NCBI GenBank assembly: GCA_965221895.1 | Contig: CBDCSX010000002.1 | Location: 1,595,366-1,659,365, forward strand | Origin: Dehalococcoidia bacterium | GTDB taxonomy: Bacteria > Chloroflexota > Dehalococcoidia > Lucifugimonadales > GCA-2712585 | Length of the DNA stretch: 64,000 bases | Reading direction: 5' to 3' | Translations under genes and position numbers: made by a program | Shown: positions 481 through 51,169 of the stretch, piece after piece | Position numbering within the stretch: the first letter of the stretch is position 1 | How the letters are laid out: each line of letters begins with the position of its first letter | The notes under the pieces: model-generated | What the model was told of the DNA's origin: nothing | Seen by the model: the letters and a program-made list of their open reading frames with translations, nothing else | The model's database searches: none

Positions 481-504
481 GCTTTCACCCCCATCCTGGC
501 CTTC

Positions 505-17031: not shown

Positions 17032-17083
17032 GCGATTGGAAAGCTTAAGATGAACCTTAACCCCAATGAAAGGAGCAAACGTC

Positions 17084-18208: not shown

Positions 18209-18252
18209 GCTCTCTTTGCCAAGGGACCCCTTAGGTATCCGGTAACAAACGA

Positions 18253-18300
18253 CGGGCCACCCCGCCATGGGGTGGCCCGTCGCCATTTTTCATGAAATCC
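18253..18300 (+). terminator. Rho-independent terminator
   Basis: 13-bp perfect stem 'gacgggccacccc'/'ggggtggcccgtc' followed by a T-run 'ccatttttcatg'. Confidence 0.7.
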
Positions 18301-18316
18301 ACTTGAGGGAGCAAAC

Positions 18317-25777: not shown

Positions 25778-27835
25778 TCAATAGACCGGGACAGTGTACT
25801 CGTGGTAGCGCACGGGGCCGAAGTGGGCCTGGTTGACCTCGTATCCCTCAACGAAGCCCGGGTTGTAGACTGCTTTCTCAAATACCCACAAAAGGGGAAT
25901 GCTCAGGAACTCATCATGCCAAAAATCGCCGAGTTCTTGAATTAATTTTTTCCGCTCCATAGGATCGGCCACGGTGTCAAAATGTTCCTTCCACTCGGTG
26001 ATGAAGGGCAATTCGTAGTATGGCCTGATGCTTTTCCGCCACAGGAATCCCATGCCCGCTGAGGGCAACTGCGGCGACCAACGAACCAAAAAAATGGTTC
26101 CGTTCAACGCGCGATTCATCAGCCCCTCCTGAACAAGTGAGTGCTCAGTAACCGTCAGGAAAGCGTTTATGCCGATCTCTTGCCACATTTCAGCAATCGC
26201 AAGCGTAACTTCGGGAATTTCCGGTGTCCCTCTCAGGTTCGATGAAGCAAAAAGGTCCAGACTGAAGCCATCAGGATAGCCGGCTTCAAGCAATAGTTCC
26301 CGGGCTTTTTCCGGATCGTAAGGATAGGGCCAGCCGCCATCTGCACCAGTCTTGCCATCGGGCCCAGGAATGGGCGCCCATTCATCTTTGAAGGAATCCC
26401 GCCACTCGGCCATGTGGGAGACGGCGCTGGGTATTGCGTCTCCACCAAAGAACGTGTCATTGATGTAGTTCCGGTCGATAGAGTAATTGAGCGCCTGTCT
26501 AACTAACTTGTTCCGGGTGGGTGCATTCTCACTATAGTTGGGTGTAGGTGTGCCATCCAGTGCCTCGGGCAGGTACCAGGGAATGACCCCCCATAGGTGG
26601 AAGCCAGGCAGAGTGCTTTTGGCAATCTCCAAGCCATATTCTTCAGTCCGATCGAACACTTCCCTTGGAAGCTGGCTAATGTGGGACTCTCCGGTTATTG
26701 TCATAGCCAGGACTAATGCAGGCTCTTGGATCCAAAGGAACTGAAGCTCGCGGAAGTCCGGTTCCTTCCGGTAGTGCCCCACGTTCCTTTCCAGCAGGAA
26801 GTGCTCGTTGCGGATGTACTCCACGAAGCTAAATGCCCCTGTTCCAATAGGGTGGTTGGTGTAACCATCCTCGCCGCCTACGTCGTCCCAGTAGTCTTTA
26901 CTGATGAGCCCGAAGGTCCAGTCCTCTGAAAGGTAAATGTGGGCGTCCGGATGGACGAAGTCCAAATTCCAGGTAACGGCGTTACCTTCAAGCACAATAT
27001 CTTCACCACTTTCGAGCCATGGCCTCCACGTGCCGGTGTTATTGGCCCGATCTGATTCTATTCCAGCCTGCAAGAGCCATGTCCACCGAACATCTTCTGG
27101 TGAGACCACGTACTCGCTTGACTTACCCTTCATGTAGTAGGGAATGTTCTCTTTGAGGTGGAAAGTCCACTTCCTGGCATCATCACTGACGGACCAAGCC
27201 TCTGCGAGGTGGGTATTTTCTACCGCTCCGGTCTTACGATTCACGCCCACCAGATAGTCATAGAGATTGTGGAGAGGCCCGCTGGAACTCTGGAATGTCA
27301 TGTAAGGGAGTCTCACTTGATGGGTAGGCGGCGGCATCGCTATCTTCAGCCTGGGGTCCAAGGGGATAAGCTGGGTTGTAGGGGAGGTTGGCGTAGGGAT
27401 GGGCGTGGCAGTCGGCGGCGCTGCTTCTGAGGGCGTAGGCATCGGACTGGCTGCGGGCGTAGCACTTGGGGTTTCTGTGGGGACGGGTGTTGGTAGCGAT
27501 GTCGGCCTCGCTGTAAGGATTGGCGTGGGAACTTGTCTCTCATTAGGCACCGATGTGGCGATAGGCGTTGGTGAAGGAGTCGGCCGCGTTGTCGGTGTGA
27601 CTGTAGGTACCGGCCTCGCCATAGGGACAGGAGTGGGAATAGATCCAGACGTTTGTGGCAAATCGTCTTCTGTCCCACACCCAGTGGCAACCAACATCAC
27701 TGCTAATACTACACCGAGAGAAAAGGCCAACCTGGTGACGTGGGACGATTGCTCACGAATGAATATGACTAGCTCAATTAAGAACACCAACTTATAATTA
27801 GAAGTTGGCGAAATTCTGAAGGGATTCATAGGCAT
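25778..27835 (-). CDS. ABC transporter substrate-binding protein, family 5 (peptide/oligopeptide type), a lipoprotein with a Pro/Thr linker. The start is uncertain; the ORF runs to 27946.
   Basis: Lipobox 'LVATGC', PT-rich linker, and SBP_bac_5-type body. Confidence 0.7.
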   Translation of the reverse strand: MPMNPFRISPTSNYKLVFLIELVIFIREQSSHVTRLAFSLGVVLAVMLVATGCGTEDDLPQTSGSIPTPVPMARPVPTVTPTTRPTPSPTPIATSVPNERQVPTPILTARPTSLPTPVPTETPSATPAASPMPTPSEAAPPTATPIPTPTSPTTQLIPLDPRLKIAMPPPTHQVRLPYMTFQSSSGPLHNLYDYLVGVNRKTGAVENTHLAEAWSVSDDARKWTFHLKENIPYYMKGKSSEYVVSPEDVRWTWLLQAGIESDRANNTGTWRPWLESGEDIVLEGNAVTWNLDFVHPDAHIYLSEDWTFGLISKDYWDDVGGEDGYTNHPIGTGAFSFVEYIRNEHFLLERNVGHYRKEPDFRELQFLWIQEPALVLAMTITGESHISQLPREVFDRTEEYGLEIAKSTLPGFHLWGVIPWYLPEALDGTPTPNYSENAPTRNKLVRQALNYSIDRNYINDTFFGGDAIPSAVSHMAEWRDSFKDEWAPIPGPDGKTGADGGWPYPYDPEKARELLLEAGYPDGFSLDLFASSNLRGTPEIPEVTLAIAEMWQEIGINAFLTVTEHSLVQEGLMNRALNGTIFLVRWSPQLPSAGMGFLWRKSIRPYYELPFITEWKEHFDTVADPMERKKLIQELGDFWHDEFLSIPLLWVFEKAVYNPGFVEGYEVNQAHFGPVRYHEYTVPVY

Positions 27836-27973: not shown

Positions 27974-29554
27974 ATGGCAGATGTTATTATTCGAAACGGT
28001 AGAATTATTGATGGGGCGGGGAACCCCTGGTATCACGGCGACGTGGCAGTCTCGGGCGGGGTAATATCAGCCGTTGGGGAGGTAATGGAGTCCGCGCCGA
28101 CGATCATCGACGCTCAGGGTCTCTGCGTCTGTCCTGGCTTCATCGACATGCACTCCCACCCGGACCTTACGCTCTTCTACAAGGACGTGGAGGACTACAA
28201 GCTGCGGCAGGGGGTCACCACGGAGGTCGGCGGCAACTGCGGGTTCACCGCCGCGCCCCTCAGCGACGCCACCGCCGACGACCTTCAGAGTTATACCGCC
28301 TTCATCACGCCTCCCAGTGGGGTAACGTGGGACTGGCGCACCTTCAGCGAATACCTGAATGCGGTGGAAGAGTCCCGCCCCGCCACCAACCTGGCGCCCC
28401 TGGTCGGCCAGGGAACTGTTCGAATCGCGGTTATGGGCTTCGACGAGCGCGCGCCAACGCCCGACGAGCTTCGAGAGATGCAAGCTCTTGTCCAAGAGGC
28501 CATGGAAGCCGGCTCTTTCGGCATCTCAACCGGCCTCATCTACGTCCCGGGGGCCTACGCCGCAACGGAAGAGATTGCCGCTATGGCCCGGGTCGCATCC
28601 CAGTTCGGCGGCTTCTACGCCACTCACATGCGAAACGAGGGCGACGACCTGATGAAGTCCATCGAAGAGACCCTGACCATCGGACGAGAGGCGAACCTGC
28701 CCGTCCAGATATCCCACCACAAGGCCACGGGAAGCGCCAATCACGGCAAGGTTTCCCAGTCTCTGGAACTTATCGGAGAGGCCCGGCGGCAGGGCATGGA
28801 CGTCACCGTGGACCAGTACCCCTACGCCGCCGGCAGCACCACCCTGCAGGCCGTGCTGCCCCCGTGGGCCCAGGAAGGGGGCGTTGACCGGGTGGTAGCC
28901 CGACTTCAAGACCCCGAAACCCGGGCTGTCGTAGAGGAGGAGCTACTCAACGAAAAGGGAGAGACTCGCATCGGCGGCGCACTGGAGAACATCCTAATAA
29001 CCACGGTGAAGTCGGACGCCAACCGCCGGTTCGCCGGCCTTACCATCGGAGAAATCAGCGACCTTCGTAACAGCTCGCCGGTGGATGCCGTCCTTGACCT
29101 GCTGGTGGAGGAACGCTGCGCCGCAGGCATGGTGGTCTTCTCCATGGACGAGGCCGACGTGCGGACGGTGATGGCCAGCCCCCACACCATGATCGGCTCT
29201 GACGGGCTGTTCCAGCTGGGCAACCCCCATCCACGGATCTACGGCACCTATCCCCGCATCCTGGGCCGATATGTTCGGGAGGATGGACTGCTCACCCTGG
29301 AGGAGGCGGTGCGAAAGATGACGTCCTTCCCCGCCCAGCGGCTCGGCCTGCACAACAAGGGGGTGCTGCGTCCGGGGGCCGACGCGGACATCGTGGTCTT
29401 TGACCCCGATACTGTTATCGATCGGGGAACCTTCCGGGACCCCAACCAGTATCCCGTGGGCATCGAATACGTGCTCGTCAACGGATGCGTCAGCGTTTCC
29501 GAGGGGCGGTTTACGGGCGAAACAGCGGGGCAGGTTTTGCGCAAGGGACGGTAG
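27974..29554 (+). CDS. N-acyl-D-amino-acid deacylase (D-aminoacylase), amidohydrolase superfamily
   Basis: 'IIRNGRIIDGAGNPWYHGDVAV..GFIDMHSHPD' and the overall D-aminoacylase architecture. Confidence 0.8.
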   Translation: MADVIIRNGRIIDGAGNPWYHGDVAVSGGVISAVGEVMESAPTIIDAQGLCVCPGFIDMHSHPDLTLFYKDVEDYKLRQGVTTEVGGNCGFTAAPLSDATADDLQSYTAFITPPSGVTWDWRTFSEYLNAVEESRPATNLAPLVGQGTVRIAVMGFDERAPTPDELREMQALVQEAMEAGSFGISTGLIYVPGAYAATEEIAAMARVASQFGGFYATHMRNEGDDLMKSIEETLTIGREANLPVQISHHKATGSANHGKVSQSLELIGEARRQGMDVTVDQYPYAAGSTTLQAVLPPWAQEGGVDRVVARLQDPETRAVVEEELLNEKGETRIGGALENILITTVKSDANRRFAGLTIGEISDLRNSSPVDAVLDLLVEERCAAGMVVFSMDEADVRTVMASPHTMIGSDGLFQLGNPHPRIYGTYPRILGRYVREDGLLTLEEAVRKMTSFPAQRLGLHNKGVLRPGADADIVVFDPDTVIDRGTFRDPNQYPVGIEYVLVNGCVSVSEGRFTGETAGQVLRKGR

Positions 29555-29707
29555 CACCGCCGCGAACTCTCCCTCTCAATTGGCGGACATTTTCATCAAT
29601 ACGACTGCACGCAAACCTTTATAGTTGCGGTATATTGTCATATATTGACATGATTCAACATTTACCGCATCATGGCTTGAAAATCTCTTGCACCGTAGGA
29701 AGCAGTC

Positions 29708-30199
29708 TTGGAAGTCAACGACACACCATCGGCGCTGATGTCCCTGCCACAACTGGCCCGATACCTGGCCATGAAGGAGCGCACCATCTATGACTGGGCC
29801 CAATCAGGCAAAATCCCTGCGTTCAAGCTAGGCGCCACTTGGCGGTTCCGTCGGTCAGAGATAGACGCGTGGCTGGAGACTCAGCGGGTAGGAGTCGACG
29901 TCGCCTCTCTCCGCGCACCCCTGGTACCGCCGGTGCAACCCCCGTTGACGGCGTGGGAAGTTCGCCGGCAGAAGGAGGAAGCTCACCGGCAGCTAGTTGA
30001 GGCCTGCCGAAAGGAAATTGAGATGGTCATCCGCGACGAGAGCCGAAGCGTGTTTGTTATTGACCAATTTACCTACCAGTTCGGGGCCGACGTGGTAAGG
30101 GAAGTGGTGGAACAGCTTCGAAAGGAGAAGCTAATCACTGTTTCAGAGCACCGGGGACGAGACGGAGAGAAAGTCAAAGTTATTGGAAGGAGGAACTGA
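29708..30199 (+). CDS. Excisionase-family (AlpA/Xis-like HTH_17) DNA-binding protein with a C-terminal extension
   Basis: 'LPQLARYLAMKERTIYDWAQSGKIPAFKLGATWRFRRSEIDAWLE'. An AT-rich region containing the palindrome TGTCATATATTGACA lies upstream at 29625-29655. Confidence 0.65.
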   Translation: MEVNDTPSALMSLPQLARYLAMKERTIYDWAQSGKIPAFKLGATWRFRRSEIDAWLETQRVGVDVASLRAPLVPPVQPPLTAWEVRRQKEEAHRQLVEACRKEIEMVIRDESRSVFVIDQFTYQFGADVVREVVEQLRKEKLITVSEHRGRDGEKVKVIGRRN

Positions 30200-30200
30200 A

Positions 30201-30722
30201 GTGACATTTCTGGGATTAGGTAAGCCAAGGAAGCTCGAAGATCTCAAGATTGACGACCTCCGAAAGGAGCGAGCGCAGCAGGAGATAAAGCAGGATATTC
30301 TCTTGACGGCCTTGCGGCGGGCCCAAAAGGAGTACGACCGCCTGTTGGAGGTGGCGTCGGAGCCGGGGATAAACGATGCGGCAAGGAACGTGGCGGCCTA
30401 CCGGATGAGCCACGCCTCCAAGCGAAGGGGCAGGGCCGAGGCCGACCTGTGCCGGGTTATAACTCGAATGACTGTGCTGGATTCTGCCATCGACAACATC
30501 AGTATGAAGATGGACCTGCAGAAGCGCGGCGTTTGGAAACAGATCAACGACCTTGATAAGGAAACCTTGGTTGAGCAATTGGATGCCTTCGTCGTTAGGA
30601 CAAAAGCGGCAGACGACAAGTTAGAAGCCATGACTGAGGTGAACGTTGTCTTCCACCGTGGACCTGAATTCGACCGGGCCAGAGCCGCTATCGAGGAAGC
30701 GGCCAGCGAGAAGATCGACTAG
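30201..30722 (+). CDS. Coiled-coil hypothetical protein, with a GTG start 7 nt after GGAGG and 1 nt after the upstream stop
   Basis: Charged heptad-like sequence. Tight translational coupling to the genes on either side. Confidence 0.5.
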   Translation: MTFLGLGKPRKLEDLKIDDLRKERAQQEIKQDILLTALRRAQKEYDRLLEVASEPGINDAARNVAAYRMSHASKRRGRAEADLCRVITRMTVLDSAIDNISMKMDLQKRGVWKQINDLDKETLVEQLDAFVVRTKAADDKLEAMTEVNVVFHRGPEFDRARAAIEEAASEKID

Positions 30723-30742
30723 CTCGGAAGCGCGGACATCTC

Positions 30743-33259
30743 TTGAGACAGGAAGAACATGACACTTTAATCCTGCGTCCGGGCCGGCCCACTGGCGGGC
30801 TATTCGGCAAGTCGCTGACCGTCGGTCCCTACCAGGTTGGCATTGTCGTCCGGGACGGCGAACTGCAGCCTCCCTTCTCGGAAGGCACTAGAAGGCTGCC
30901 GAGAGGCCACGCGATGGAGACCTACGTGGCCTCAACAGCACCGTTCAATCTGGTCTTCTGGCTTGCCGACCCGGGCGATCCGGAAAGACCGGCGCAAGGA
31001 CTCTCGCTGGATCAGCCCGCACTCACCGCCGACGGACTGCCCGTCACAGGCCGTATGGAACTCACGCTATCCGTCACATCCGAGTATGCCGCCCGGCTGC
31101 TGCGACTGAGGAGAATGGGCCAACGCGAGATCAGGGCGAGCGACGTCTCCAACGCCATCAGGGGCGAACTGGTTGCCAAGGTGCTGGCTCTGGAACTGCA
31201 TCGCTACACGTCCGACGAGTTGCGGGGCAACCGAGCCCCTCTCCAAGACATACACGGCTCCATCAATACGGAGCTAGCCTCGACTATCTCGGGCTATGGC
31301 CTCCGTCTGGACAATTTCAACGTCAGCTGGGGCCTTACGCTCCAAGAACGGGAACATATCAAAGAGGCTCGGCACAGGAGCGCCATACGGGACATCGAGC
31401 GAGAGGGGGAGTTGGAGCAGGCCAGGTTGAGAGGGGAACCGGCAAGGAACGCCGAAACCATCGAACAAGCGCCGCCTCCGCGCAGCGAGACATCTGATGA
31501 ACCATCAACAGATGCAGATTCGAAGGATGGCGGACAGGGCTTCGGAGGGCCATCAGAGCCAGGCAACCAAGGAGTGCAACCGAGGGGAGCATGGGATCCC
31601 AAGTGGGTACTTGCGGTGGCCGTGGTGGCAATAGTCGGACTCGCTGGCGCATTGTTATATTTCACTAGCTTGGACTCATCCGGCGCTTCTCCGGAGGAGT
31701 CCTCCGTGACAACCGCGGAACCCATGCCGATACCGCTCCAAGACCACAACTGTCCCGACTTTGAAACGCAGTCGGAAGCCCAAGACTATTATGAGCGTGC
31801 GGGAGGTCCCGATTTAGACCCGCACCGACTTGATGACGACGGCGACGGCATCGCCTGCGAAGGATTTTTTTCAGATAGATTGCCCACAGACTCGCCGCCA
31901 TCTTCAACCAGGTCCGACACCCCGACTCCTGCGCCCACTGCCGCTTCAACGGCCACACCGCCAGTTGCATCGCAGCCAATAATCATCAATGTGTCCATAC
32001 CTTCGCCAATGCAGACACCAACCGCTGTGCCGTCGCCTACGGTCACACTCAATCCAACGACTGTGCCAACCGCCGTGCCGACACCAGCGGTTACACCCAA
32101 TCCAACGGCTGCACCAACCCCCGTATCGATACCCACACCCAAGTCGTCAGAACGTACAAGGGGCGATTTGTCGTGCTTTGTACCAGAATGCTCTCGGCGC
32201 TCAGATCCGCTCAAAGACTCTTTCGACAACTTTTTGGTAGAAGCCACGTTTGTCAACCCAACTAGCACGGACGAATTCAAGTATGGCTTCACCATCGACG
32301 GCACGTTCAATAATAACGTCTCCGAGCAGATTGAGATCAGGATAACCAACGACCGGACTTGGAGGGCGTTCATCCGAAAGGTCTACCATGAATCCGCACC
32401 GGTCAACATAGACCGACGACAAATCGAAATTGACGGCGGGGAGATACCCTATCCAATCGTGAACACCAGCGCTGGAGGTTCCAACAAACTAGAGGCAACT
32501 ATTGTTGGAGACGAAGGGTGCCTTTATGTAAATTCTATTCTTATTTCCTGCTTCGACATCTCAGGCCGCTCCCTGACGAGGGGGATACTCGTATCTTCTG
32601 AGAAAGGAGATGTCCGGTATAACGGCTTTAGAGCAAGGGAAGCGATGGCAGGAACTGAGGGGCCGCTTGCGACCCCAAGTCCCACGCCCACGCCCGCATC
32701 AATACCAACTCCCATGTCGGCAGAACGTGCCAGGGGTGACTTGTCCTGCTCAGTGTCAGAATGTGCGCAACGCTCAGATCCACTCGGCATCTCGTTCGCC
32801 AACTTTTTGGTTGAGGCCACGTTCTTCAATCCGACCAGTATGGAATCATTCAAGTATGGCTTCACAATCAAAGGTGCGTCCCAGGATGACATCATTGAAA
32901 GGATTGAGATCAGGGTCGCCAACGACCGAACCTGGAGAGCGTACATCCAAAAGTCCTCCCATGAGTCCTTTCCCGTCAATTTAGATCATCGGCAAATAGA
33001 AATTAGCGGCGGGGAGATACCCGTTCCATTCGTCGACACTAACGTCGGAGGCTCCAATCGGCTCGAGGCAACCGTTCTTGGTGACGAAGGGTGCCTCTAC
33101 GTCAATGGCATTTTCATTTCCTGCTTCGACCTGTCCAACCGCGCCTTTACGAGGGACATAGCCGTATCTTCTATGCAAGGTGACGTCCTGTATACCGGCT
33201 TCAGAGCAAGGGAAGCGCTGGCAGGAACTGAGTGGCCGCTTTCCACGCCCCCTCCATAG
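30743..33259 (+). CDS. Multidomain membrane protein: N-terminal SPFH/band-7-like domain, TM helix (~aa 287-306), Excalibur Ca-binding domain, Pro/Thr linker, and 2 tandem copies of an uncharacterised ~150-aa domain
   Basis: Excalibur 'CPDFETQSEAQDYYERAGGPDLDPHRLDDDGDGIACE'. SPFH-like 'ETYVASTAPFNLVFWLADP...SNAIRGELVAKV'. Repeated domain 'LVEATF(V/F)NPTS..FKYGFTI...GCLYVN.I.ISCFD(I/L)S' at aa ~535-690 and ~715-835. Confidence 0.6.
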   Translation: MRQEEHDTLILRPGRPTGGLFGKSLTVGPYQVGIVVRDGELQPPFSEGTRRLPRGHAMETYVASTAPFNLVFWLADPGDPERPAQGLSLDQPALTADGLPVTGRMELTLSVTSEYAARLLRLRRMGQREIRASDVSNAIRGELVAKVLALELHRYTSDELRGNRAPLQDIHGSINTELASTISGYGLRLDNFNVSWGLTLQEREHIKEARHRSAIRDIEREGELEQARLRGEPARNAETIEQAPPPRSETSDEPSTDADSKDGGQGFGGPSEPGNQGVQPRGAWDPKWVLAVAVVAIVGLAGALLYFTSLDSSGASPEESSVTTAEPMPIPLQDHNCPDFETQSEAQDYYERAGGPDLDPHRLDDDGDGIACEGFFSDRLPTDSPPSSTRSDTPTPAPTAASTATPPVASQPIIINVSIPSPMQTPTAVPSPTVTLNPTTVPTAVPTPAVTPNPTAAPTPVSIPTPKSSERTRGDLSCFVPECSRRSDPLKDSFDNFLVEATFVNPTSTDEFKYGFTIDGTFNNNVSEQIEIRITNDRTWRAFIRKVYHESAPVNIDRRQIEIDGGEIPYPIVNTSAGGSNKLEATIVGDEGCLYVNSILISCFDISGRSLTRGILVSSEKGDVRYNGFRAREAMAGTEGPLATPSPTPTPASIPTPMSAERARGDLSCSVSECAQRSDPLGISFANFLVEATFFNPTSMESFKYGFTIKGASQDDIIERIEIRVANDRTWRAYIQKSSHESFPVNLDHRQIEISGGEIPVPFVDTNVGGSNRLEATVLGDEGCLYVNGIFISCFDLSNRAFTRDIAVSSMQGDVLYTGFRAREALAGTEWPLSTPPP

Positions 33260-33270
33260 CCCAATCTCTA

Positions 33271-33370
33271 GACCCCAACCAGTATCCTGTAGGCATTGAG
33301 TACGTGCGATCAACGGATGCTTCAGCGTGTCGGAGGGCGGTTTGCGGGGGAGACGGCGGGTGGGGGGGAA
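33271..33370 (+). pseudogene. Orphan, frameshifted ~95-bp copy of the D-aminoacylase 3' end (corresponding to 29436-29530)
   Basis: 'gaccccaaccagtatcctgtaggcattgagtacgtgcg-atcaacggatgc...' is ~80% identical to the gene end. The differences are mostly synonymous, plus a 1-nt deletion. Confidence 0.7.
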
Positions 33371-33448
33371 CAAGGCAAAGCAACGCCCCGGCAGGCAACT
33401 TAGCCGCCAACTTTGATTCCACCCGATCCTTCGGTGTATGATAGGTGT

Positions 33449-33652
33449 ATGGTACGCACCAACGTAGATATCGACGATCGGGCGTGCGCCGAGGTGATGC
33501 GGCGATATCAGCTATCCACCAAGCGCGAGGCGGTCAATTTTGCCCTCCGCACCCTGGCTGCGGAGTCCCTATCCTTAGCTGAGGCCCGCAACCTCCGCGG
33601 CATCGGCTGGGAGGGCGACCTGGACGTAATGCGGTCTTCATCCTCGCCGTGA
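33449..33652 (+). CDS. vapB: VapB-family antitoxin
   Basis: 'MVRTNVDIDDRACAEVMRRYQLSTKREAVNFALRTLAAE' with a 4-bp overlap onto the PIN gene. Confidence 0.75.
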   Translation: MVRTNVDIDDRACAEVMRRYQLSTKREAVNFALRTLAAESLSLAEARNLRGIGWEGDLDVMRSSSSP

Positions 33653-34044
33653 TTCTGGTCGACTCCTCAGCCTGGATAGAGTTTCTTCGAGACACGGGAT
33701 CTACGGTCTGCGAGGCGGTGGACCGGTTGCTAGGACAGGAGGTGGCCGTCTGCGACGTCATTAGCATGGAGATCCTCGCCGGCGCTCGTGACGAATCGCA
33801 CTTGGCAAGCCTACGACGCCTGCTAGCCAGGGCCGCCATGATCCGTACGAGGCCAACGGACTATGAAGACGCTGCTGCGCTCTATCGTCGCTGCCGCCGG
33901 GGAGGAGAGACCGTTCGCAAGCTGGTCGACTGTCTCATCGCCTCGGTAGCCATACGCGCTGGTGTGGCCGTTCTGCACCAGGATGCTGATTTCGACACCC
34001 TAGCCCGTCATACGAAACTGCAAGTGCACCAATCCAATCCTTAA
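33649..34044 (+). CDS. vapC: VapC PIN-domain toxin
   Basis: 'MILVDSSAWIEFLRDTGS...CDVISMEILAGAR...DCLIASVAIRAGVAVLHQDADF' PIN acidic residues. Confidence 0.8.
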   Translation: MILVDSSAWIEFLRDTGSTVCEAVDRLLGQEVAVCDVISMEILAGARDESHLASLRRLLARAAMIRTRPTDYEDAAALYRRCRRGGETVRKLVDCLIASVAIRAGVAVLHQDADFDTLARHTKLQVHQSNP

Positions 34045-38131: not shown

Positions 38132-38135
38132 TTCA

Positions 38136-38240
38136 AACCAGCGCCTACGGGTGGGGGTCTTGCCATCGGATAAACCGTCTACGCAATAGGCGGGAAAAGG
38201 GCGGTTCGCGAACCACGCCTACCAGATGGGGGGCAATATC
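38136..38240. repeat. Left ~105-bp direct repeat flanking brnTA; contains the REP-like palindrome
   Basis: ~88% identical to 38942-39050. Confidence 0.7.
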
Positions 38241-38320
38241 ATCGTGCGTATCCGGACAAACATTGACTTTTGGTATGTCCTGTAACTACAACTTTGTAAT
38301 ATGGTGAAGGGCGACTGTAT

Positions 38321-38611
38321 TTGCGTTGGACTTGGAACCAGGCCGAGGATCGGGGGAATCTTGGAGCACACGGCCTCGACTTCAATGCAGCAGCGCTTGT
38401 GTTTGACGATCCTATGTCTGCGACGCGGGAAGACCCATATCCACATGAGCAAAGGTGGCGAACAATGGGCGTGTTAGGAAATCAAGTCTTAATGGTAGTC
38501 CACACATGGCCCGCCTTTGACGAAGAGACTGGCGAAGCTATCGGCCGCATCATCTCCGCACGCAAGGCGACGAGTTATGAAAGGATGGCTTATGAAGAAG
38601 GACTTGACTGA
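38321..38611 (+). CDS. brnT: BrnT toxin (RelE-like ribonuclease, DUF497)
   Basis: 'FDDPMSATREDPYPHEQRWRTMGVLGNQVLMVVHTW....RIISARKATSYERMAYEE'. Confidence 0.75.
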   Translation: MRWTWNQAEDRGNLGAHGLDFNAAALVFDDPMSATREDPYPHEQRWRTMGVLGNQVLMVVHTWPAFDEETGEAIGRIISARKATSYERMAYEEGLD

Positions 38612-38882
38612 GTTGCCGTCAGACGTTCAAGCGCAGTTACGGGACTTAGAAGCTCTGCCGGACGACCAGATTGATACAACCGACGCCCCAGAGATTCTCG
38701 ACTGGACCGATGCCAGGCGCGGGGTGTTCTACCGGCCTATAAAGCAACAGATTACGCTAAGGCTCGATGCAGACGTCATAGCCTGGTTCAAGGCCCATGC
38801 TCGTAACGGTCGTGGGTATCAAACAAACATCAATGGAGCGCTTCGCGCGCACGTACAGCGGTCGGCTCGTTCGGTAAGGTAA
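38592..38882 (+). CDS. brnA: BrnA antitoxin. The start was moved to the ATG at 38592, which follows an AAGGA RBS and overlaps the brnT end.
   Basis: C-terminal 'ITLRLDADVIAWFKAHARNGRGYQTNINGALRAHV' BrnA/CopG-like region. Confidence 0.7.
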   Translation: MKKDLTELPSDVQAQLRDLEALPDDQIDTTDAPEILDWTDARRGVFYRPIKQQITLRLDADVIAWFKAHARNGRGYQTNINGALRAHVQRSARSVR

Positions 38883-38941
38883 TCTTGACCGTCGTGTCGA
38901 GCCACCGGTCGCCATGGAACTTGCGGAGATGGCGGGTTTGA

Positions 38942-39050
38942 AACCAGCCCCCTACGGGTGGGGGTCTTGCCATCGGATAAACCGCCTACGCAATAGACGG
39001 GGAAAGGGCGGTTCGCGAACCGCCCCTACCAGAGGGGGGGGTAATATCGT
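38942..39050. repeat. Right ~105-bp direct repeat flanking brnTA, preceded by a degenerate MITE-TIR-like 'gggtttgaaaccagcc'
   Basis: Alignment to 38136-38240. The palindrome GGGCGGTTCGCGAACCGCCC is perfect here. Confidence 0.7.
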
Positions 39051-39163
39051 CCGATTCTCCGTGAGCGGTCTTGTCTAGTCTGGACACCAACCCCAAAAGA
39101 CTGTAGTTTTTTATGGGCGCTTCTAAACATCGGCGCGCCAGTCCCAACCTCCAAGGAGCTAAG

Positions 39164-44526: not shown

Positions 44527-46278
44527 ATGACTAACGCTTACTCGGTTAAGTTTGAGCCGCATATCCCCCTGACCCTCGGAGACGGGACCATGTCCTACGT
44601 GGACGTGTTCCGGCCCGACGCTCCCGGTCGTTTTCCCGCCCTTCTCCAGCGCACGCCCTACGACAAGGGAGGGCCCGGCAGCCGCTCCGGACCCGTCGAC
44701 GCCATTCGGGGGGCCATGAACGGCTACGCCGTCGTCATCCAGGACGTTCGCGGTCGGCATAGTTCGGACGGCGAGTTCTACACCTTCGTCAACGAATCCG
44801 ACGACGGATATCACTCCGTGGAGTGGGTAGCGTCCCAGCCCTGGTGCAACGGCAAGGTGGGCATGTACGGCGTGTCCTACGTGGGCGCAACCCAGTGGCT
44901 CGCGGCCAAGGCAAAGCCCCCATCTCTGACGGCCATCGTCCCCGGCGTCACCGCCTCCGATTACCACGAAGGTTGGGCCTGGCAGGGCGGCGCCTTTGAG
45001 CTTGGCTTCAACCTTTCCTGGGCCGTCGGCCCCCTGACCGCCGCCAACTGGGGCAACCTCTCCAAACGTCTGGGCCTCCCCCAGCAGCAGCTGAACGACG
45101 TCATTCACGCCAAGGACAATCTGACCGACGGATTCCTGCACATGCCCTTGGAGGAAGTGCCTGACCTGAAGGGCGGCCTGGCTCCCTACTACTACGACTG
45201 GCTGGCCCATCCGGAGTTCGACGACTACTGGAAGAGCGTCTGCATCGCCGAGTCCCACTCCGACATCGACGTGCCCGCGCTCAACTGGGGCGGGTGGTAC
45301 GACGTGTTCCTCGGCGGCACAATCGACAACTACGTGGGGATGCGCCGACGAGGGGCGACGGAGGCCGCCCGCAAGGGTCAGCGCCTGCTCATCGGACCGT
45401 GGATTCACGGCAACTCGCCCGTTGACGTTTCGGGCCAGTTCCACTTCGGCACCCGCGCATCTTCTGCAGTCCTCGACCTGCCCGGGATCATCCTCCGCTA
45501 CTACGACCACTGGCTCAAGGGAGAGGACAACGGAGTGGCTGACGAAAAGCCGGTGCGCATCTTCGTCATGGGAGAAAACAGGTGGCGGATGGAGGATTCG
45601 TGGCCCCTGGAGCGGGCGGTGACCACCAACTTCTACCTGCATAGCGGCGGGAGGGCTAACACCCTGAACGGCGACGGGTCGCTGAGCGTGGACGCGCCGG
45701 GCAACGAGCCGCCGGACGTGTACGCCTACAACCCCCTGGACCCGGCCCCGACTCGAGGCGGCGGCCTGTGCTGCGACCCCGCATTCATGATGTCGGGCGC
45801 CTACGACCAGCGGCCTATCGAGGCTCGCCCCGACGTTCTGGTGTACAGCACGCCGGAACTTGAACGAGACACGGAAGTCACCGGCCCCGTGACGGTCACT
45901 CTGTACGCCGCCAGCTCCGCCGTGGACACGGACTTCACCGGCAAGCTGGTGGACGTTGAGCCCTGCGGCTGCGCCCGAAATCTAACCGACGGCATCATAC
46001 GCGCCAGATATCGTAAGCCGCGACAGCCTGCGAGCCTCATCCAACCCGGTGAAGTCTACGAGTACGCCATCGACGTCTGGGCCACCAGCAACGTGTTCAA
46101 GAAGGGACACCGGATTCGGTTGGAGATTTCCAGCAGCAACTTCCCCCGGTTCGACCGGAACGCCAACACCGGCGGGGACATAGGCGCGGGGACGCGGCTG
46201 GTTCCGGCTTTGCAGACAGTGTTCCACGACGGGGAGTATCCGTCGCACGTGAGCCTGCCGCTGGTGCCGAGGGGGTGA
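44527..46278 (+). CDS. CocE/NonD family hydrolase (S15 X-Pro dipeptidyl-peptidase fold)
   Basis: 'ALLQRTPYDKG', 'GVSYVGATQW' (GxSxxG), and a C-terminal beta-sandwich domain. Confidence 0.8.
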   Translation: MTNAYSVKFEPHIPLTLGDGTMSYVDVFRPDAPGRFPALLQRTPYDKGGPGSRSGPVDAIRGAMNGYAVVIQDVRGRHSSDGEFYTFVNESDDGYHSVEWVASQPWCNGKVGMYGVSYVGATQWLAAKAKPPSLTAIVPGVTASDYHEGWAWQGGAFELGFNLSWAVGPLTAANWGNLSKRLGLPQQQLNDVIHAKDNLTDGFLHMPLEEVPDLKGGLAPYYYDWLAHPEFDDYWKSVCIAESHSDIDVPALNWGGWYDVFLGGTIDNYVGMRRRGATEAARKGQRLLIGPWIHGNSPVDVSGQFHFGTRASSAVLDLPGIILRYYDHWLKGEDNGVADEKPVRIFVMGENRWRMEDSWPLERAVTTNFYLHSGGRANTLNGDGSLSVDAPGNEPPDVYAYNPLDPAPTRGGGLCCDPAFMMSGAYDQRPIEARPDVLVYSTPELERDTEVTGPVTVTLYAASSAVDTDFTGKLVDVEPCGCARNLTDGIIRARYRKPRQPASLIQPGEVYEYAIDVWATSNVFKKGHRIRLEISSSNFPRFDRNANTGGDIGAGTRLVPALQTVFHDGEYPSHVSLPLVPRG

Positions 46279-46319
46279 TTGCCCGACCTCTCGTTTAACT
46301 TGCCTTCAGGCCAACATTT

Positions 46320-47576
46320 GTGCGAAACTACCGAGCTATGAGCAGCGACTTCATAAAGCGGAAATCTCTCGTATTTGTCCTCGCGGCGGTGGTGGTGGGG
46401 CTTGTGGCTTTTGTGGGGGCGTGCGTGCTTGTGTATGAAACCGGGTGGTTGAGCAACGAGGAATACGACTGGAGGGAGGAAGTGACAGGCTCGCGCCCTT
46501 TTGTTCCCCCTCAGTGGTCTTCTGACGGCACGAAGATGATAATAGATTGGTGGGAGATCCCCTACCTAGTTGACACTGGTCCTGACCCACCAATGCTCAA
46601 GCGAATAGTCGCAGGAAATTACCAGGAACGCTTCTATCCCCGCATTTCTCCAGACGGATTGCGGATAGTCTTCTCAACGGAGCGACACGCGAGTTACGGA
46701 CTTATGAGGGAGATTGGAGTCTCCAACCTTGACGGGTCTGAATATCGACGACTAACCAGAAATAGATATTTTCAATCAGCCCCGGCGTGGTCTCCCGACG
46801 GCTCCCACATCGCCTTGTTCTCCAAACCTCAAAGTGACGAGGAAACCTACTACAGATTTCAAAGCTTATATGTGATTTCAGCCAGAGGCTCCAGCCCACA
46901 GAAACTTGTTGAGTGGGTTCGGGCTTTCGGCCCTCCTGTCTGGTCTCCCGATGGCCGCAAGATTGCATTATTGAGCCGCCCAAGAGCAACATCGGGTGAC
47001 GGCATTATCTACGTTATCGACCGAGACGGATCTAACGCGATCAAAATTCCTGGGGCTTCCAGCCAACCAGCCTGGTCTCCCGACGGAAGCTCTATAGCTT
47101 TTCTGCGTGGAGAAAAACGCGAATCCCTACATGTCGTCAACCCGGACGGTTCCGGGTTGCGGAAGCTAGTCGATTTGGACCCCGACACTTTACTAAGACG
47201 GAACTGGTATCCGGAACTTTATTTGTCTTGGTCTCCGGACGGTTCGGAGATCTTACTGCGGGACTACCCTTTCATTTTGGTCAAAGCCGATGGTACGGAT
47301 TACCCTGAGGGAGAATCACCATACGCCGTATTTGCCGATTCGCAAGATTGGCGCAGAGCCTACGCCTCCTGGTCTCCGGACGGCTCAAGAATTGCCATCA
47401 CTGTAGAGCGAATGGGTGAATTCGGGCCCATTGCTGGCGATGCCGTTCTCCTCACCATGGCGCGAGACGGGTCAGACAAGCGGGTGCTGGTAAGGCACGG
47501 CCATGAATACAGACCCTATGCCGTTCCCAATGAGCCGTGGGAGGGAGAAGGGGAATGGGTGTGGCATTCTCCGTAG
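46320..47576 (+). CDS. TolB-like (PD40/WD40-like beta-propeller) lipoprotein, paralog 1
   Basis: Lipobox 'AFVGAC' and repeated 'WSPDGS.IAF' blocks. Ends '...VPNEPWEGEGEWVWHSP'. Confidence 0.7.
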   Translation: MRNYRAMSSDFIKRKSLVFVLAAVVVGLVAFVGACVLVYETGWLSNEEYDWREEVTGSRPFVPPQWSSDGTKMIIDWWEIPYLVDTGPDPPMLKRIVAGNYQERFYPRISPDGLRIVFSTERHASYGLMREIGVSNLDGSEYRRLTRNRYFQSAPAWSPDGSHIALFSKPQSDEETYYRFQSLYVISARGSSPQKLVEWVRAFGPPVWSPDGRKIALLSRPRATSGDGIIYVIDRDGSNAIKIPGASSQPAWSPDGSSIAFLRGEKRESLHVVNPDGSGLRKLVDLDPDTLLRRNWYPELYLSWSPDGSEILLRDYPFILVKADGTDYPEGESPYAVFADSQDWRRAYASWSPDGSRIAITVERMGEFGPIAGDAVLLTMARDGSDKRVLVRHGHEYRPYAVPNEPWEGEGEWVWHSP

Positions 47577-47585
47577 GGGGGAATC

Positions 47586-47709
47586 AGCCCCGGTTCGACC
47601 GAAACGCCAACACGGGAGGGGGGACGCGGCTGGTTCTCGCGCTGCAGACCGTGTTCCACGACGCGGAATACCCCTCCCACGTAAGCCTTCCCCTGGTGCC
47701 TAGGGACTA
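47586..47709 (+). pseudogene. Orphan copy of the cocE 3' end (corresponding to 46143-46278), with an in-frame 12-nt deletion and a TAA stop in the homologous position
   Basis: Would encode 'PRFDRNANTGGGTRLVLALQTVFHDAEYPSHVSLPLVPRD*', compared with cocE 'PRFDRNANTGGDIGAGTRLVPALQTVFHDGEYPSHVSLPLVPRG*'. Most of the nucleotide differences are synonymous. Confidence 0.75.
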
Positions 47710-47798
47710 ACTGAATACATACATCCGCAAGTCATCGGCTTTTGACTTGCCGTTTCGCAACGCTTGTGCGAAACTAACCATCGATAGGCGGTGGTTTC

Positions 47799-49016
47799 GT
47801 GCAACGGAAATACATTGTAGTCGTCCTGGCGTCGGTTATGGTGGGGCTTGCGGCTTTTGTGGGAGCGTGCGCGCTTGTTTATGAAACCGGGTGGTTGAGC
47901 AGTGACGATGATGTAGGATACCCTGTTGGATCTCCTCCCCTCCTGCCTCCCATATGGTCTCCTGACGGCACAAAGATAGTATTGGACTGGTGGTCAGGGT
48001 CGTACCTGGTTGAAGCAAGATACGATGGCGTAGAACTCACTAGAATCTACGTGGAAAATGAATGGGAGAGGATTTATCCCCATATCTCCCCAGACGGCTC
48101 ACGGATAGCCTTCTCAACAGGGCGGAACTCGTTTGATGTATATGACTCTGATATTCGGCTTACCGACTTAGACGGGGGCAATTATCGATATCTGACCAGA
48201 AGCAGGGGTAATCAATTTGGTCAAAGGTGGGCACCCGACGGCTCAAGAATCGCCTTTATCTCATGTCTTCGCGTTCGCAAAGATGCGGTCGAGAGGACCT
48301 GTAGCCTATACAGCATAGCTGCCAACGGTTCCGGGCCCCGCAAGCTTGTTGACTCGGTGCAAGCTACCGGGGGCATCGCCTGGTCTCCTGATGGAAGGAC
48401 GATCGCATTCTTCGGCCATGAACGGGACCAGTTAGGCGAATGGCCGAAGGCCCATTTCATATACATCGTAGACGGCGATGGTTCAAATTTGGCCAGGCTT
48501 GCAGAAGCTTCTAGTCTACCGACCTGGTCCCCTGACGGAAGCTCTATTGCTTTTCTGCAGGGAGACACCAGAGACGCATTGTTCGTCGTCGAGCCGGACG
48601 GCACCGGGTTGCGGAAAATTGCCGTTCTAGATTCCATACCAGAACGGTCTTGGTTCCCAAGAACATACTTGTCGTGGTCTCCAAATGGTTCGGAGATTCT
48701 GCTGCAGGATTATCCCTTCATCTTGGTCAAGGCGGATGGCACGGAATACCCGGAGGGGAAAGCGCCTTATGCGGTTTTTGTCGACTCAGAAGATTGGGAA
48801 CATGCCTACGCGTCCTGGGCTCCGGACGGTTCAAGGATTGCCATCACTGTCCAGCAGGCCGGCGGAAACGACCCAGATGACAGAGAAGCCTTTCTCCTCA
48901 CCATGGCGCGAGACGGGTCAGACAAGCGTGCTATGGTAAGGATCGACGAACGTGTCTATGCCGTGCCCAATGAGCCGTGGGAGGGAGGGGGCGAGTGGGT
49001 GTGGCATTCGCCGTAG
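47799..49016 (+). CDS. TolB-like (PD40) lipoprotein, paralog 2
   Basis: ~60-65% identical to paralog 1, with N- and C-termini nearly identical. Confidence 0.7.
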   Translation: MQRKYIVVVLASVMVGLAAFVGACALVYETGWLSSDDDVGYPVGSPPLLPPIWSPDGTKIVLDWWSGSYLVEARYDGVELTRIYVENEWERIYPHISPDGSRIAFSTGRNSFDVYDSDIRLTDLDGGNYRYLTRSRGNQFGQRWAPDGSRIAFISCLRVRKDAVERTCSLYSIAANGSGPRKLVDSVQATGGIAWSPDGRTIAFFGHERDQLGEWPKAHFIYIVDGDGSNLARLAEASSLPTWSPDGSSIAFLQGDTRDALFVVEPDGTGLRKIAVLDSIPERSWFPRTYLSWSPNGSEILLQDYPFILVKADGTEYPEGKAPYAVFVDSEDWEHAYASWAPDGSRIAITVQQAGGNDPDDREAFLLTMARDGSDKRAMVRIDERVYAVPNEPWEGGGEWVWHSP

Positions 49017-49020
49017 GGGG

Positions 49021-49105
49021 AATCAACCACGCTTCGAGGTGAACGCCGACATGGGCGGGAACATGGGCGGGGAGACGCGGCTGGTACGAACGCTTGCAGT
49101 CCTGG
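49021..49105 (+). pseudogene. A second, more diverged orphan fragment of a cocE-like 3' end
   Basis: 'cgcttcgaggtgaacgccgacatgggcgggaacatgggcggggagacgcggctggtacgaacgcttgcag' is ~75% identical to cocE 46148-46225 and retains the 12 nt that the 47586-47709 copy lacks. Confidence 0.55.
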
Positions 49106-51125: not shown

Positions 51126-51169
51126 CACGGCCCGTCCCTATCAGAACGGGGGGTGGGGCGCCGGTTGGG

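What the first reader, a model, noticed from the sequence alone, without database searches (positions are those of the whole stretch)
29436..33370. A 3.8-kb insert (excisionase-like HTH, coiled-coil protein, SPFH-Excalibur protein) bracketed by the D-aminoacylase 3' end and a decayed duplicate of it
The last ~95 bp of the D-aminoacylase ORF (29436-29530) recur at 33271-33365, immediately after the 838-aa gene. The duplicate copy differs mostly at synonymous sites and has a 1-nt deletion, so it is a displaced gene end. This is the arrangement expected when an integrative element carrying its own copy of the target 3' end inserts at that 3' end. The three enclosed genes are tightly coupled: there is 1 nt between the stop of the HTH gene and the GTG of the coiled-coil gene, and 20 nt before the third gene. 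The first gene encodes an AlpA/Xis-type HTH. No integrase is present. The same architecture is seen at the cocE locus, which argues for a shared mechanism acting at 3' ends of protein-coding genes in this genome.
Basis: partly seen in the sequence, partly recalled or inferred. Interest (0 to 1): 0.8.

Follow-up and report, generated by a model that had tools for sequence, protein, structure and literature searches.

The report
Recombination scar beside a resident three-gene operon
The duplicated end of the D-aminoacylase gene is real, but it is a strain-level recombination scar in a very recombination-prone locus: the three enclosed genes were already resident there in every sampled relative, so they were not delivered by a mobile element that made the duplicate.

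Summary
The last ~110 nt of the D-aminoacylase gene (29438-29548) recur at 33271-~33375, 11 nt after the stop of the 838-aa gene (84% identity over 92 nt, self-BLAST E=1e-18). Gene spacing, the HTH_17, Band_7 and Excalibur domains, the absence of an integrase and the cocE parallel are all confirmed.

In 15+ related Dehalococcoidia contigs the HTH / coiled-coil / SPFH operon sits at this same locus, and its protein identities track those of the flanking genes. Most of these contigs have no duplicate.

The duplicate (X') is an allele found in 5 of 11 near-identical strains. The other strains carry an unrelated ~50-nt spacer (v) between the same flanks, and v starts with a 14-15/17-18 match to the head of the repeat.

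X' was copied from a sister-lineage ("K") allele of the gene end and then decayed neutrally. This strain's working gene end is a ~250-nt allele from a third lineage, which explains the "synonymous" differences.

I conclude that microhomology-primed illegitimate recombination made X', not site-specific integration.

Similar displaced gene ends recur nearby: the second lectin-like domain of the 838-aa ORF, the cocE-PD40 array, and an aminoacylase 5' copy in a relative. Interest is moderate to low.

The parts
27974..29554 (+). D-aminoacylase-like amidohydrolase gene (526 aa), the conserved anchor gene
   Evidence: Amidohydro_3 at 2e-37. Orthologues of 86-97% identity lie in syntenic loci.
29438..29548 (+). 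X: the part of the aminoacylase 3' end that recurs downstream. The 17-nt head is 29438-29454.
29395..29640 (+). Imported allele patch covering the gene end and the intergenic region. It is L088-like, whereas the gene upstream of it is L081-like.
   Evidence: Informative-site pattern switches between 29372 and 29394, and switches back between 29625 and 29715. Identity to L088 is 98% over 206 nt.
29555..29707 (+). Intergenic region with promoter-like hexamers (29618-29673) and a 10-nt inverted repeat (29626-29635 / 29660-29669). This is the likely promoter and operator of the operon.
   Evidence: These are consensus matches only.
29708..30199 (+). 163-aa protein with an N-terminal excisionase-family HTH (HTH_17) and an uncharacterised C-terminal ~100 aa
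   Evidence: PF12728 62.7 bits and TIGR01764 50.5 bits, both above cut-off. MAD1 scores 70.9 bits, below its cut-off of 80.
30201..30722 (+). 173-aa all-helical (coiled-coil) protein of a rare uncharacterised family
   Evidence: 45 clusters in one search and 82 in the other. No Pfam hit, even for remote members. The AF2 model is a helical hairpin, pLDDT 77.
30743..33259 (+). 838-aa ORF. Order of parts: cytoplasmic SPFH/Band_7 domain, one TM helix (~31589-31660), Excalibur, P/T-rich linker, lectin-like domain Cdom1, linker, Cdom2.
32114..32686 (+). Cdom1: hypervariable galectin/ConA-like domain. It is the functional C-terminus in sister strains.
   Evidence: It is 75% identical to Cdom2. It is only 81-91% identical to the Cdom1 of strains that are otherwise 98-100% identical. 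Foldseek gives galectins at E=2e-6.
32687..33259 (+). Cdom2: the displaced native (K-type) C-terminal domain. It is joined to the ORF here only because the stop after Cdom1 (TAG in 5 sister strains) reads GAG in this strain.
   Evidence: Cdom2 is 97% identical to L081's single Cdom.
33271..33375 (+). X': decayed copy of a K-type allele of the aminoacylase 3' end. It is allelic to the unrelated v spacer of other strains.
33449..34044 (+). vapB (33449-33652, ATG start) and vapC (33649-34044), with a promoter-like site at 33413-33442 downstream of X'
46144..49085 (+). Parallel case: cocE end X0 (46144-46278), PD40 gene A (46320-47576), X1 (47588-47705), PD40 gene B (47799-49016), truncated X2 (49027-49085)

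Best explanation
Shown:
- The HTH / coiled-coil / SPFH-lectin operon is an old, vertically inherited resident between the D-aminoacylase and BNR genes of this Dehalococcoidia clade.
- The sequence at 33271-33375 (X') is a young, strain-level allele. About 110 nt of the aminoacylase 3' end, taken from a sister-lineage (K-type) allele, replaced about 50 nt of the spacer behind the SPFH gene.
- The spacer already contained GACCACGGCCAGTAT(T/C)CC at that point, a 14-15/17-18 match to the head of X.
- Since then X' has decayed neutrally.
- In this strain the working gene end and the adjacent intergenic region were also overwritten by a ~250-nt allele from a third lineage, through ordinary short-tract homologous recombination.

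Inferred:
- The event that made X' was illegitimate recombination primed at the microhomology.
- It could have been a templated short patch (SPDIR-like).
- It could also have been one-sided homologous recombination, with the non-homologous end joined inside the anchor gene.
- It was not catalysed by an integrase, and it did not bring in the three genes.

X' has no evident function. It lies upstream of the vapBC promoter-like site.
For: Residency of the operon:
- Same locus and same gene order in L001, L081, L082, L085, L086, L088, L092-L096 and L098.
- Protein identities of the cassette rank like those of the flanks.

X' is allelic to v:
- Both alleles share the left flank (SPFH stop plus 11 nt) and the right flank (AAC(A/G)AGGCAAAGCAA...).
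- X' occurs only in the window, L092, L095, L096 and L097.
- v occurs in L081, L085, L093, L094 and L098, and apparently in L099, where only the shared right flank was checked. L088 has a more diverged orthologue.
- L098 is 97-100% window-like everywhere else.

Source of X':
- X' shares the diagnostic sites of K-type ends (GGGGGAGACGGCG, GTGTCGGAG, GTAGGC, CTGGTC).
- Identity is 91% to L093/L094 against 84% to the window's own end.

Neutral decay:
- L097 X' against L093: Sd 2, Nd 5, plus a frameshift shared by all X' copies.
- The window copy has further indels.

Imported working end:
- The site pattern is, and identity to L088 is 98%.

No recombinase and no phage link:
- No recombinase in any of the 40 ORFs scanned.
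- No relatives in IMG/VR.

Known mechanism of this kind:
- SPDIR integrates ectopic single strands at extended microhomologies and gives indels of 3 to ~100 bp (10.1101/2023.11.22.568220).

Recombination-prone locus:
- Strain comparisons show a patchwork of 150-1000-nt tracts.
Against: - The right-hand junction shows no clear microhomology.
- The patch (~110-120 nt) is at or above the size range reported for SPDIR.
- X' is K-type, yet it is found only in strains whose working end is L088-type. The order of events is therefore unresolved.
- Three other scars have the same geometry, with a displaced copy of the adjacent conserved gene's end lying 11-40 nt beyond the stop of the last cassette gene: cocE/PD40, Cdom2, and the L082 5' end. 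This hints at a process tied to cassette gain rather than random patching.
- The head match in v could be a vestige of an older copy rather than a chance microhomology. A match at that exact position has a probability of ~1e-6. Over all gene x spacer position pairs, about 0.3 such matches are expected (my own calculation).
Confidence: 0.55

Rival explanations
1. Re-insertion by recombination with homology on one side only (homology-facilitated illegitimate recombination, HFIR). A sister strain had lost the operon, leaving aminoacylase-vapBC. It took up a DNA fragment running from inside the aminoacylase gene to just past the SPFH stop. The left end recombined homologously in the gene. The right end, which carried the v head, joined at the matching head inside the recipient's own gene end. 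The recipient's native end was thereby displaced downstream as X'. The first reader's picture would then be right in outcome, but without any integrase.
For: - It gives the observed geometry in one step.
- X' runs to the end of the gene and merges into the native vapB upstream region, so no second illegitimate junction is needed.
- The junction lies at the microhomology.
- The same logic explains Cdom1 and the displaced Cdom2.
- It also explains the displaced aminoacylase 5' end in L082 and the founder X-PD40-X state in L100.
- L004 shows that operon-deleted variants exist.
Against: - No operon-free, vapBC-bearing strain was found.
- The flanks downstream of X' are 96-100% identical to those of v strains, so no distinct recipient lineage is visible.
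- It needs a prior precise loss of the operon.
Confidence: 0.2
2. Scar of a tandem duplication. Unequal exchange between the X head and the v head, 3.83 kb apart, duplicated the whole unit from X through the SPFH gene. A later deletion removed the second operon copy and left only its first ~110 nt as X'.
For: - The left junction lies at the microhomology.
- Tandem amplification of exactly such a unit is seen at cocE, with 1, 2 or 3 PD40 units in different genomes.
Against: - It needs two rare events.
- The second event would have to be an illegitimate deletion with no visible microhomology.
- Homologous collapse of the duplication would remove X' as well.
- No strain carries two operon copies.
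Confidence: 0.13
3. Integrase-dependent integrative element that has lost its integrase or is mobilised in trans (CIME-like). GACCCCAACCAGTATCC would be the att core, and X' would be the displaced native gene end, as with e14 at icd.
For: - The two copies share a 17-nt identical head followed by diverged sequence.
- The first gene has an excisionase-family HTH.
- The v allele keeps only the head, as a conserved core would.
- The architecture equals that of e14/icd, which has a 163-bp pseudo-icd' (PMC6379469).
- The module occurs elsewhere in defence islands (L083, L084).
Against: - No recombinase in the insert or in the other large ORFs scanned across the 64-kb window.
- No empty site at the repeat boundaries.
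- Relatives have the operon without the repeat.
- Cassette and flanks are congruent.
- The L088-type patch starts 45-65 nt upstream of the supposed core.
- L083, L084, L001 and L082 show no flanking repeats.
- No relatives in IMG/VR.
Confidence: 0.07

Closest known systems
e14 / phage 21 integration at the 3' end of E. coli icd (pseudo-icd' remnant)
   Same: A direct repeat of the last ~100-160 nt of a protein-coding gene brackets an insert. The working gene end and the displaced copy differ mainly at synonymous sites (PMC6379469).
   Different: e14 carries its own integrase, has an empty site at the repeat boundaries, and excises. Here there is no integrase and no empty site. The insert is older than the repeat and is inherited vertically.
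[quoted passage not shown]
   Same: An ectopic stretch replaces a short stretch in situ, starting at an extended microhomology that contains mismatches. No dedicated recombinase is needed (10.1101/2023.11.22.568220).
   Different: Reported SPDIR patches are 3 to ~100 bp, whereas this one is ~110-120 nt. The right junction lacks visible microhomology. Nothing is known about DNA uptake or recombination functions in this uncultured lineage.
Orphan (displaced) C-terminal modules of polymorphic toxin loci (rhs, cdi); this comparison rests on my own knowledge
   Same: A new 3' part recombines into a conserved upstream region, and the old 3' part is left as an untranslated orphan just downstream. This matches Cdom1/Cdom2 of the SPFH gene (stop after Cdom1 in 5 of 6 strains).
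   Different: The variable domain is a galectin/ConA-like fold on an SPFH-anchored membrane protein. It is not a toxin with an immunity gene. The aminoacylase X' copy is a conserved end, not a variable one.
Tandem gene arrays evolving by unequal crossing-over between flanking repeats
   Same: The cocE-PD40 array has 1, 2 or 3 units in different genomes, and every unit is bounded by the same 135-nt cocE end.
   Different: The repeats are copies of the coding end of the neighbouring gene. Their differences show pN/pS of 0.15-0.17 although all but one are non-functional in place. Alleles are shared between the functional and internal positions of different genomes.

Membership tests
Site-specific integrative element at a gene 3' end (e14/icd type) | Direct repeats (attL/attR) made of the target gene end | tested here: met
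   29438-29529 vs 33271-33360, E=1e-18, with a 17-nt identical head
Site-specific integrative element at a gene 3' end (e14/icd type) | Integrase (tyrosine or serine recombinase) encoded next to an att site | tested here: not met
   No recombinase domain in the three genes or in the other 37 large ORFs of the window that were scanned
Site-specific integrative element at a gene 3' end (e14/icd type) | Empty site in relatives whose edges coincide with the repeats | tested here: not met
   L002 lacks the operon but also lacks vapBC. No locus has aminoacylase followed directly by vapBC. Strains without X' still have the operon.
Site-specific integrative element at a gene 3' end (e14/icd type) | Element history independent of the host (patchy distribution, incongruent similarity) | tested here: not met
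   Cassette identities rank like those of the flanks across 8 lineages. No relatives in IMG/VR.
CIME-like integrase-less element mobilised in trans | A cognate integrase elsewhere that recognises the flanking att sites | not testable with these tools
   Only 64 kb of this genome and 8-17-kb loci of relatives were available
SPDIR / microhomology-primed templated patch | In-situ replacement: the new sequence is allelic to an older sequence between the same flanks | tested here: met
   X' and v alleles share both flanks
SPDIR / microhomology-primed templated patch | (Extended) microhomology at the junctions | tested here: inconclusive
   Left junction: 14-15 of 17-18 nt. Right junction: none evident.
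SPDIR / microhomology-primed templated patch | Patch size of 3 to ~100 bp | tested here: inconclusive
   ~110-120 nt copied and ~50 nt replaced. The published range is cited.
SPFH / Band 7 proteins | SPFH domain above the Pfam gathering score | tested here: met
   PF01145 32.3 bits against a cut-off of 23.6, residues 26-227
Excisionase-family (HTH_17 / TIGR01764) DNA-binding proteins | Domain above the curated cut-offs | tested here: met
   PF12728 62.7 against 27; TIGR01764 50.5 against 28.8. This shows the fold only. Excisionase activity was not tested, and the protein has an extra ~100-aa C-terminal part.
MADS defence system protein MAD1 | NCBIfam equivalog score at or above its cut-off | tested here: not met
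   70.9 bits against a cut-off of 80. No other MADS genes are nearby.
PspA / Vipp1 / ESCRT-III (for the coiled-coil protein) | Significant sequence or fold match | tested here: not met
   Foldseek best E=0.09-0.4. hhalign against E. coli PspA gives probability 0.7%. No Pfam hit, even for remote members.
Galectin / ConA-like lectin fold (for Cdom) | Fold match of the predicted structure | tested here: met
   Foldseek E=2e-6, probability 1.0, TM 0.65-0.70 by target. The model is of medium confidence (pLDDT 68.5 overall, 80-87 in the core). Sugar binding was not tested.

The most novel reading that the evidence does not exclude
In this symbiont-like Dehalococcoidia lineage, short copies of the ends of conserved 'anchor' genes may act as integrase-free recombination handles. 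Cassettes such as surface lectin domains, PD40 propellers and defence or toxin-antitoxin genes would be gained, lost, amplified and swapped between strains by recombination at these gene-end repeats. Each import would bring a working gene end and push the old one downstream. The aminoacylase X', Cdom2, the cocE-PD40 array and the L082 5' copy would then be four products of one systematic process rather than unrelated accidents.
Probability: 0.2. Interest if true: 0.6.

Novelty: new member of a known kind. Interest (0 to 1): 0.33.

Why it matters
- It corrects a tempting reading. A gene-end duplicate bracketing accessory-looking genes is not sufficient evidence for an integrative element. Here population data separate the repeat from the genes.
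- It gives a natural example of microhomology-primed illegitimate recombination in an uncultured lineage. That mechanism has mostly been documented in laboratory transformation systems.
- It shows that recombination reshapes this locus at several scales. Short tracts are exchanged between strains, a lectin-like surface domain is swapped, and displaced gene ends are left behind.
- The by-products may be of more interest than the finding itself. One is a rare, uncharacterised HTH / coiled-coil / SPFH-anchored lectin operon. The other is a cocE-PD40 cassette array whose repeated cocE ends keep their coding sequence.

Tried and rejected
- Diversity-generating retroelement (template and variable repeat at a gene 3' end): rejected, because the mismatches are not adenine-specific.
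- Is the v spacer a heavily decayed older copy of X? No significant similarity beyond the head (p=0.79-0.99).
- Is v a decayed linker plus the start of a Cdom? Homology holds through the P/T linker up to about the stop codon. It is not significant beyond that (p=0.27-0.87).
- Did a single 3.3-kb imported block (29395-32686) create both the new gene end and Cdom1? Not supported. Comparisons with several K strains show a patchwork instead, for example L093 at 97-99% in 31100-31850.
- Flanking repeats around the module in other contexts (L083, L084, L082, L001): none found.
- Phage or mobile origin of the module: no relatives in IMG/VR. PADLOC gives only a weak MAD1 HTH hit.
- PspA/ESCRT-III identity of the coiled-coil protein: not supported.
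- Scan of JGI metagenome contigs with the head motif: 120 hits, all from unrelated D-aminoacylases. No close relative was found.
- One contig look-up (P0074) returned nothing.
Full report
**1. The observation**

The last part of the D-aminoacylase-like gene (27974-29554; Amidohydro_3) recurs downstream. 29438-29529 matches 33271-33360 at 83.7% over 92 nt, E=1.2e-18 in a self-BLAST of the window. None of 2000 shuffles reached the alignment score. The two copies begin with an identical 17-mer, GACCCCAACCAGTATCC, which occurs nowhere else in the window. Homology starts abruptly, 11 nt after the stop of the 838-aa ORF.

The three enclosed genes are as described:
- 29708-30199: an excisionase-family HTH (PF12728 and TIGR01764, both above cut-off).
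- 30201-30722: a coiled-coil protein starting at a GTG 1 nt after the HTH stop.
- 30743-33259: an ORF starting 20 nt later, with Band_7 and Excalibur domains.

vapB and vapC follow. No recombinase domain was found in the insert, nor among the other 37 large ORFs of the window that were scanned. Those ORFs are mostly housekeeping or transport genes, with scattered Fic, AbiTii, VapBC and BrnTA genes.

**2. The three genes in relatives**

A scan of one genome per species returned five syntenic Dehalococcoidia MAGs. Look-ups of the coiled-coil protein family and of the identical VapC protein returned 15 more loci.

- The order aminoacylase -> HTH -> coiled-coil -> SPFH -> (toxin-antitoxin) -> BNR gene is present in L001, L081, L082, L085, L086, L088, L092-L096 and L098.
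- L004 keeps a truncated HTH gene fused to the vapB region.
- L002 (77% aminoacylase identity) has the aminoacylase followed directly by the BNR gene. It lacks both the operon and vapBC.
- Protein identities of the cassette rank like those of the flanking genes: L081/L093/L085 > L088 > L001/L086/L082.

The operon is therefore an old resident of the clade, inherited with its neighbours. At 62% coiled-coil identity the module also occurs elsewhere (L083, L084). There it carries two SPFH paralogues with 33-aa tandem, TPR and PQQ repeat tails and sits among defence genes (AAA_15/21, ThsB_TIR, SduA_C, SIR2), without flanking repeats. No relative was found in IMG/VR.

**3. The duplicate is a strain-level allele**

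Among strains that share an identical VapC, the copy (X') is present in the window, L092, L095, L096 and L097. In the latter strains it carries 10 more nt, and L097 lacks one of the 1-nt deletions. L081, L085, L093, L094 and L098 carry a different sequence (v) between exactly the same flanks; L099 appears to, though only its shared right flank was checked:

CCTGCCCTCGA-GACCACGGCCAGTATTCC-AAAAGCTGTGAGAATCGCCG...TTCTAAC-GAGGCAAAGCAA.

- v shares only its first 17-18 nt with X (14-15 matches). The rest shows no significant similarity (p=0.79-0.99).
- L098 is 97-100% identical to the window everywhere else, so the repeat and the operon are separable.
- v also occurs in the more distant L085, and in a more diverged form in L088. 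X' is confined to one tight group of strains. v is therefore the older state and X' the derived one.

**4. Where X' came from**

- X' carries the diagnostic sites of the 'K-type' working gene ends of L081, L093, L094 and L085. Identity is 91% to L093/L094, against 84% to the window's own end.
- Against its nearest source allele, the least decayed X' (L097) has 2 synonymous and 5 non-synonymous differences, plus a frameshift shared by all X' copies. This is neutral decay.
- The window's own gene end is a different allele. Informative sites switch from L081-like to L088-like between 29372 and 29394, and switch back between 29625 and 29715. The 206 nt around the stop codon are 98% identical to L088, which is otherwise ~85% identical.
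- This explains why the two copies in the window differ 'mostly at synonymous sites'. They are two functional alleles from different lineages, and one of them has since decayed.
- The left edge of the imported patch lies 45-65 nt upstream of the repeat head. It is therefore not the product of a crossover at a putative att core.

**5. Most likely mechanism**

What is shown: X' replaced ~50 nt of spacer in situ, and the replacement starts at a pre-existing imperfect match to the head of X.

What is inferred: the event was illegitimate recombination primed at that microhomology. It could have been one of three things:
- a templated short patch, like SPDIR, in which ectopic single strands are integrated at extended microhomologies;
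- recombination with homology on one side only, with the free end joined inside the anchor gene;
- a tandem duplication followed by a deletion.

I cannot separate these three. The right junction shows no microhomology, and the patch is slightly longer than reported SPDIR events.

A dedicated integrase is unlikely for these reasons: no integrase was found, there is no empty site at the repeat edges, cassette and flanks are congruent, and the operon exists without the repeat.

The locus as a whole is a patchwork of 150-1000-nt tracts exchanged between co-existing lineages.

**6. Other displaced ends**

*(a) The 838-aa ORF is a strain-specific fusion.*
- In five sister strains a TAG follows Cdom1 (...MAGT*), at the same place as the stop in L088, L086 and L001. 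The window reads GAG there.
- Cdom2 is 97% identical to the single domain of L081, whereas Cdom1 is ~75% identical to every other sampled domain.
- Cdom2 is therefore a displaced native 3' part, as in the orphan modules of polymorphic toxin loci.
- Cdom1 itself differs by 9-19% between strains that are otherwise 98-100% identical.
- The domain is predicted to be a galectin/ConA-like beta-sandwich (pLDDT 68.5; Foldseek E=2e-6).
- It also occurs on Peptidase_MA_2 and collagen-repeat proteins.

*(b) The cocE locus.*
- Every PD40 gene is followed, 11-12 nt after its stop, by a copy of the last 135 nt of cocE starting at the same nucleotide. There is 1 unit in L100, 2 in the window, L089 and L091, and 3 in L090. 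The last copy is always truncated.
- Differences among the copies give pN/pS of 0.15-0.17, with pS up to 0.5.
- Alleles are shared between the working position in one genome and internal positions in another.
- The copies have therefore spent time as working gene ends.

*(c) The aminoacylase 5' end in L082.* A 67-nt copy of the aminoacylase 5' end, with its native upstream region, lies 3.36 kb upstream. It has been displaced by a p450 / PRTase / DprA-like insert.

They point to homologous plus illegitimate recombination anchored in conserved genes rather than to an integrase.

**7. What the operon is**

- The HTH protein has an excisionase-type fold plus ~100 uncharacterised residues. It scores below the MAD1 cut-off.
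- The intergenic region has promoter-like hexamers and an inverted repeat.
- The coiled-coil protein belongs to a rare family: 82 clusters among 1.8 billion representatives, with no Pfam hit.
- Its model is a helical hairpin. ESCRT-III, Vipp1 and F-BAR are the top but non-significant fold matches. PspA membership is not supported.
- The SPFH protein has a cytoplasmic SPFH domain and one TM helix (residues ~287-307). Outside the membrane it has an Excalibur domain, a P/T linker and lectin-like domain(s).
- My inference, at low confidence: this is an autoregulated operon for an SPFH-anchored surface lectin under diversifying selection.

**8. Verdict**

- The interpretation as an integrative element is only partly supported.
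- The feature is a recombination scar of a known general kind, in an unusually scar-rich locus.
- Interest is moderate to low. The recurrent gene-end copies, especially the cocE-PD40 array, deserve a genome-wide census.

Noticed in passing
window 44488-49085; L089, L090, L091, L100: cocE is followed by 1-3 tandem PD40 beta-propeller genes. Each is followed 11-12 nt after its stop by a copy of the last 135 nt of cocE. The internal copies keep an intact reading frame and the peptide PRFDRNANTGGDIG...LVPRE* (pN/pS 0.15-0.17). An ATG inside the PD40 end opens a 55-aa ORF that runs through most of them. Alleles are shared between working and internal positions of different genomes.
   Followed up: partly
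window 32114-33259; L092, L095-L098: The 838-aa ORF is a read-through fusion. Five sister strains have TAG after the first lectin-like domain. The second domain is a displaced K-type copy. The first domain differs by 9-19% between strains that are otherwise 98-100% identical.
   Followed up: yes
L082 2441-2507 vs 5802-5868: A 67-nt copy (92.5%) of the aminoacylase 5' end, with its native upstream region, lies 3.36 kb upstream of the gene. It has been displaced by an insert encoding a cytochrome P450 (minus strand), a phosphoribosyltransferase and a DprA-like protein. L093 also has the DprA-like gene directly upstream of the aminoacylase.
   Followed up: partly
window 38132-38243 and 38938-39051 (also L081, L092, L093, L095, L097, L099): A BrnT/BrnA toxin-antitoxin pair (38321-38882) is flanked by ~112-nt direct repeats (89-93% identical). 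The repeats contain the palindrome GGGCGGTTCGCGAACCGCCCC, which also occurs at 513-555.
   Followed up: no
window 50956-51140 and 51534-51720: A 185-nt direct repeat (79%; its first 87 nt 93%) containing a REP-like element (TGGATTCCGGC(T/C)TTCGCCGGAATGACGG) brackets ~400 nt with no convincing gene. A similar element truncates the last cocE-end copy in L089-L091 and L100.
   Followed up: no
window 43437-44339 (minus strand) and the same position in L089, L090, L091, L100: The slot upstream of cocE holds different defence or toxin-antitoxin genes in each genome: AbiTii here, PIN_10 + DUF433 in L089 and L091, PLDc/DpnI_C + DUF433 in L100, and small ORFs in L090.
   Followed up: no
L083 7507-12606; L084 91-7541: Distant versions of the HTH / coiled-coil / SPFH module carry two SPFH paralogues with 33-aa tandem-repeat (unnamed), TPR or PQQ-propeller tails. 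They sit among defence genes (AAA_15/21, ThsB_TIR, SduA_C, SIR2_2). In L083 the module follows the DUF1501-DUF1800-NHL genes, whose window counterparts are at 15616-19321.
   Followed up: partly
window 33-482: About three and a half tandem copies of a ~129-nt unit (74-92% identical) at the very start of the window, inside an ORF (36-572).
   Followed up: no
window 27200-27800 and 60754-62249: Long P/T-rich low-complexity linkers in a solute-binding protein and around the ORFs next to a trypsin-like protease gene (12-18-nt periodic GGCGTGGG-type repeats on the plus strand). They resemble the linkers of the SPFH protein.
   Followed up: no
P0248, P0250: The lectin-like Cdom also forms the C-terminus of a Peptidase_MA_2 protein and of a collagen-triple-helix-repeat protein. 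It is therefore a shuffled module.
   Followed up: partly
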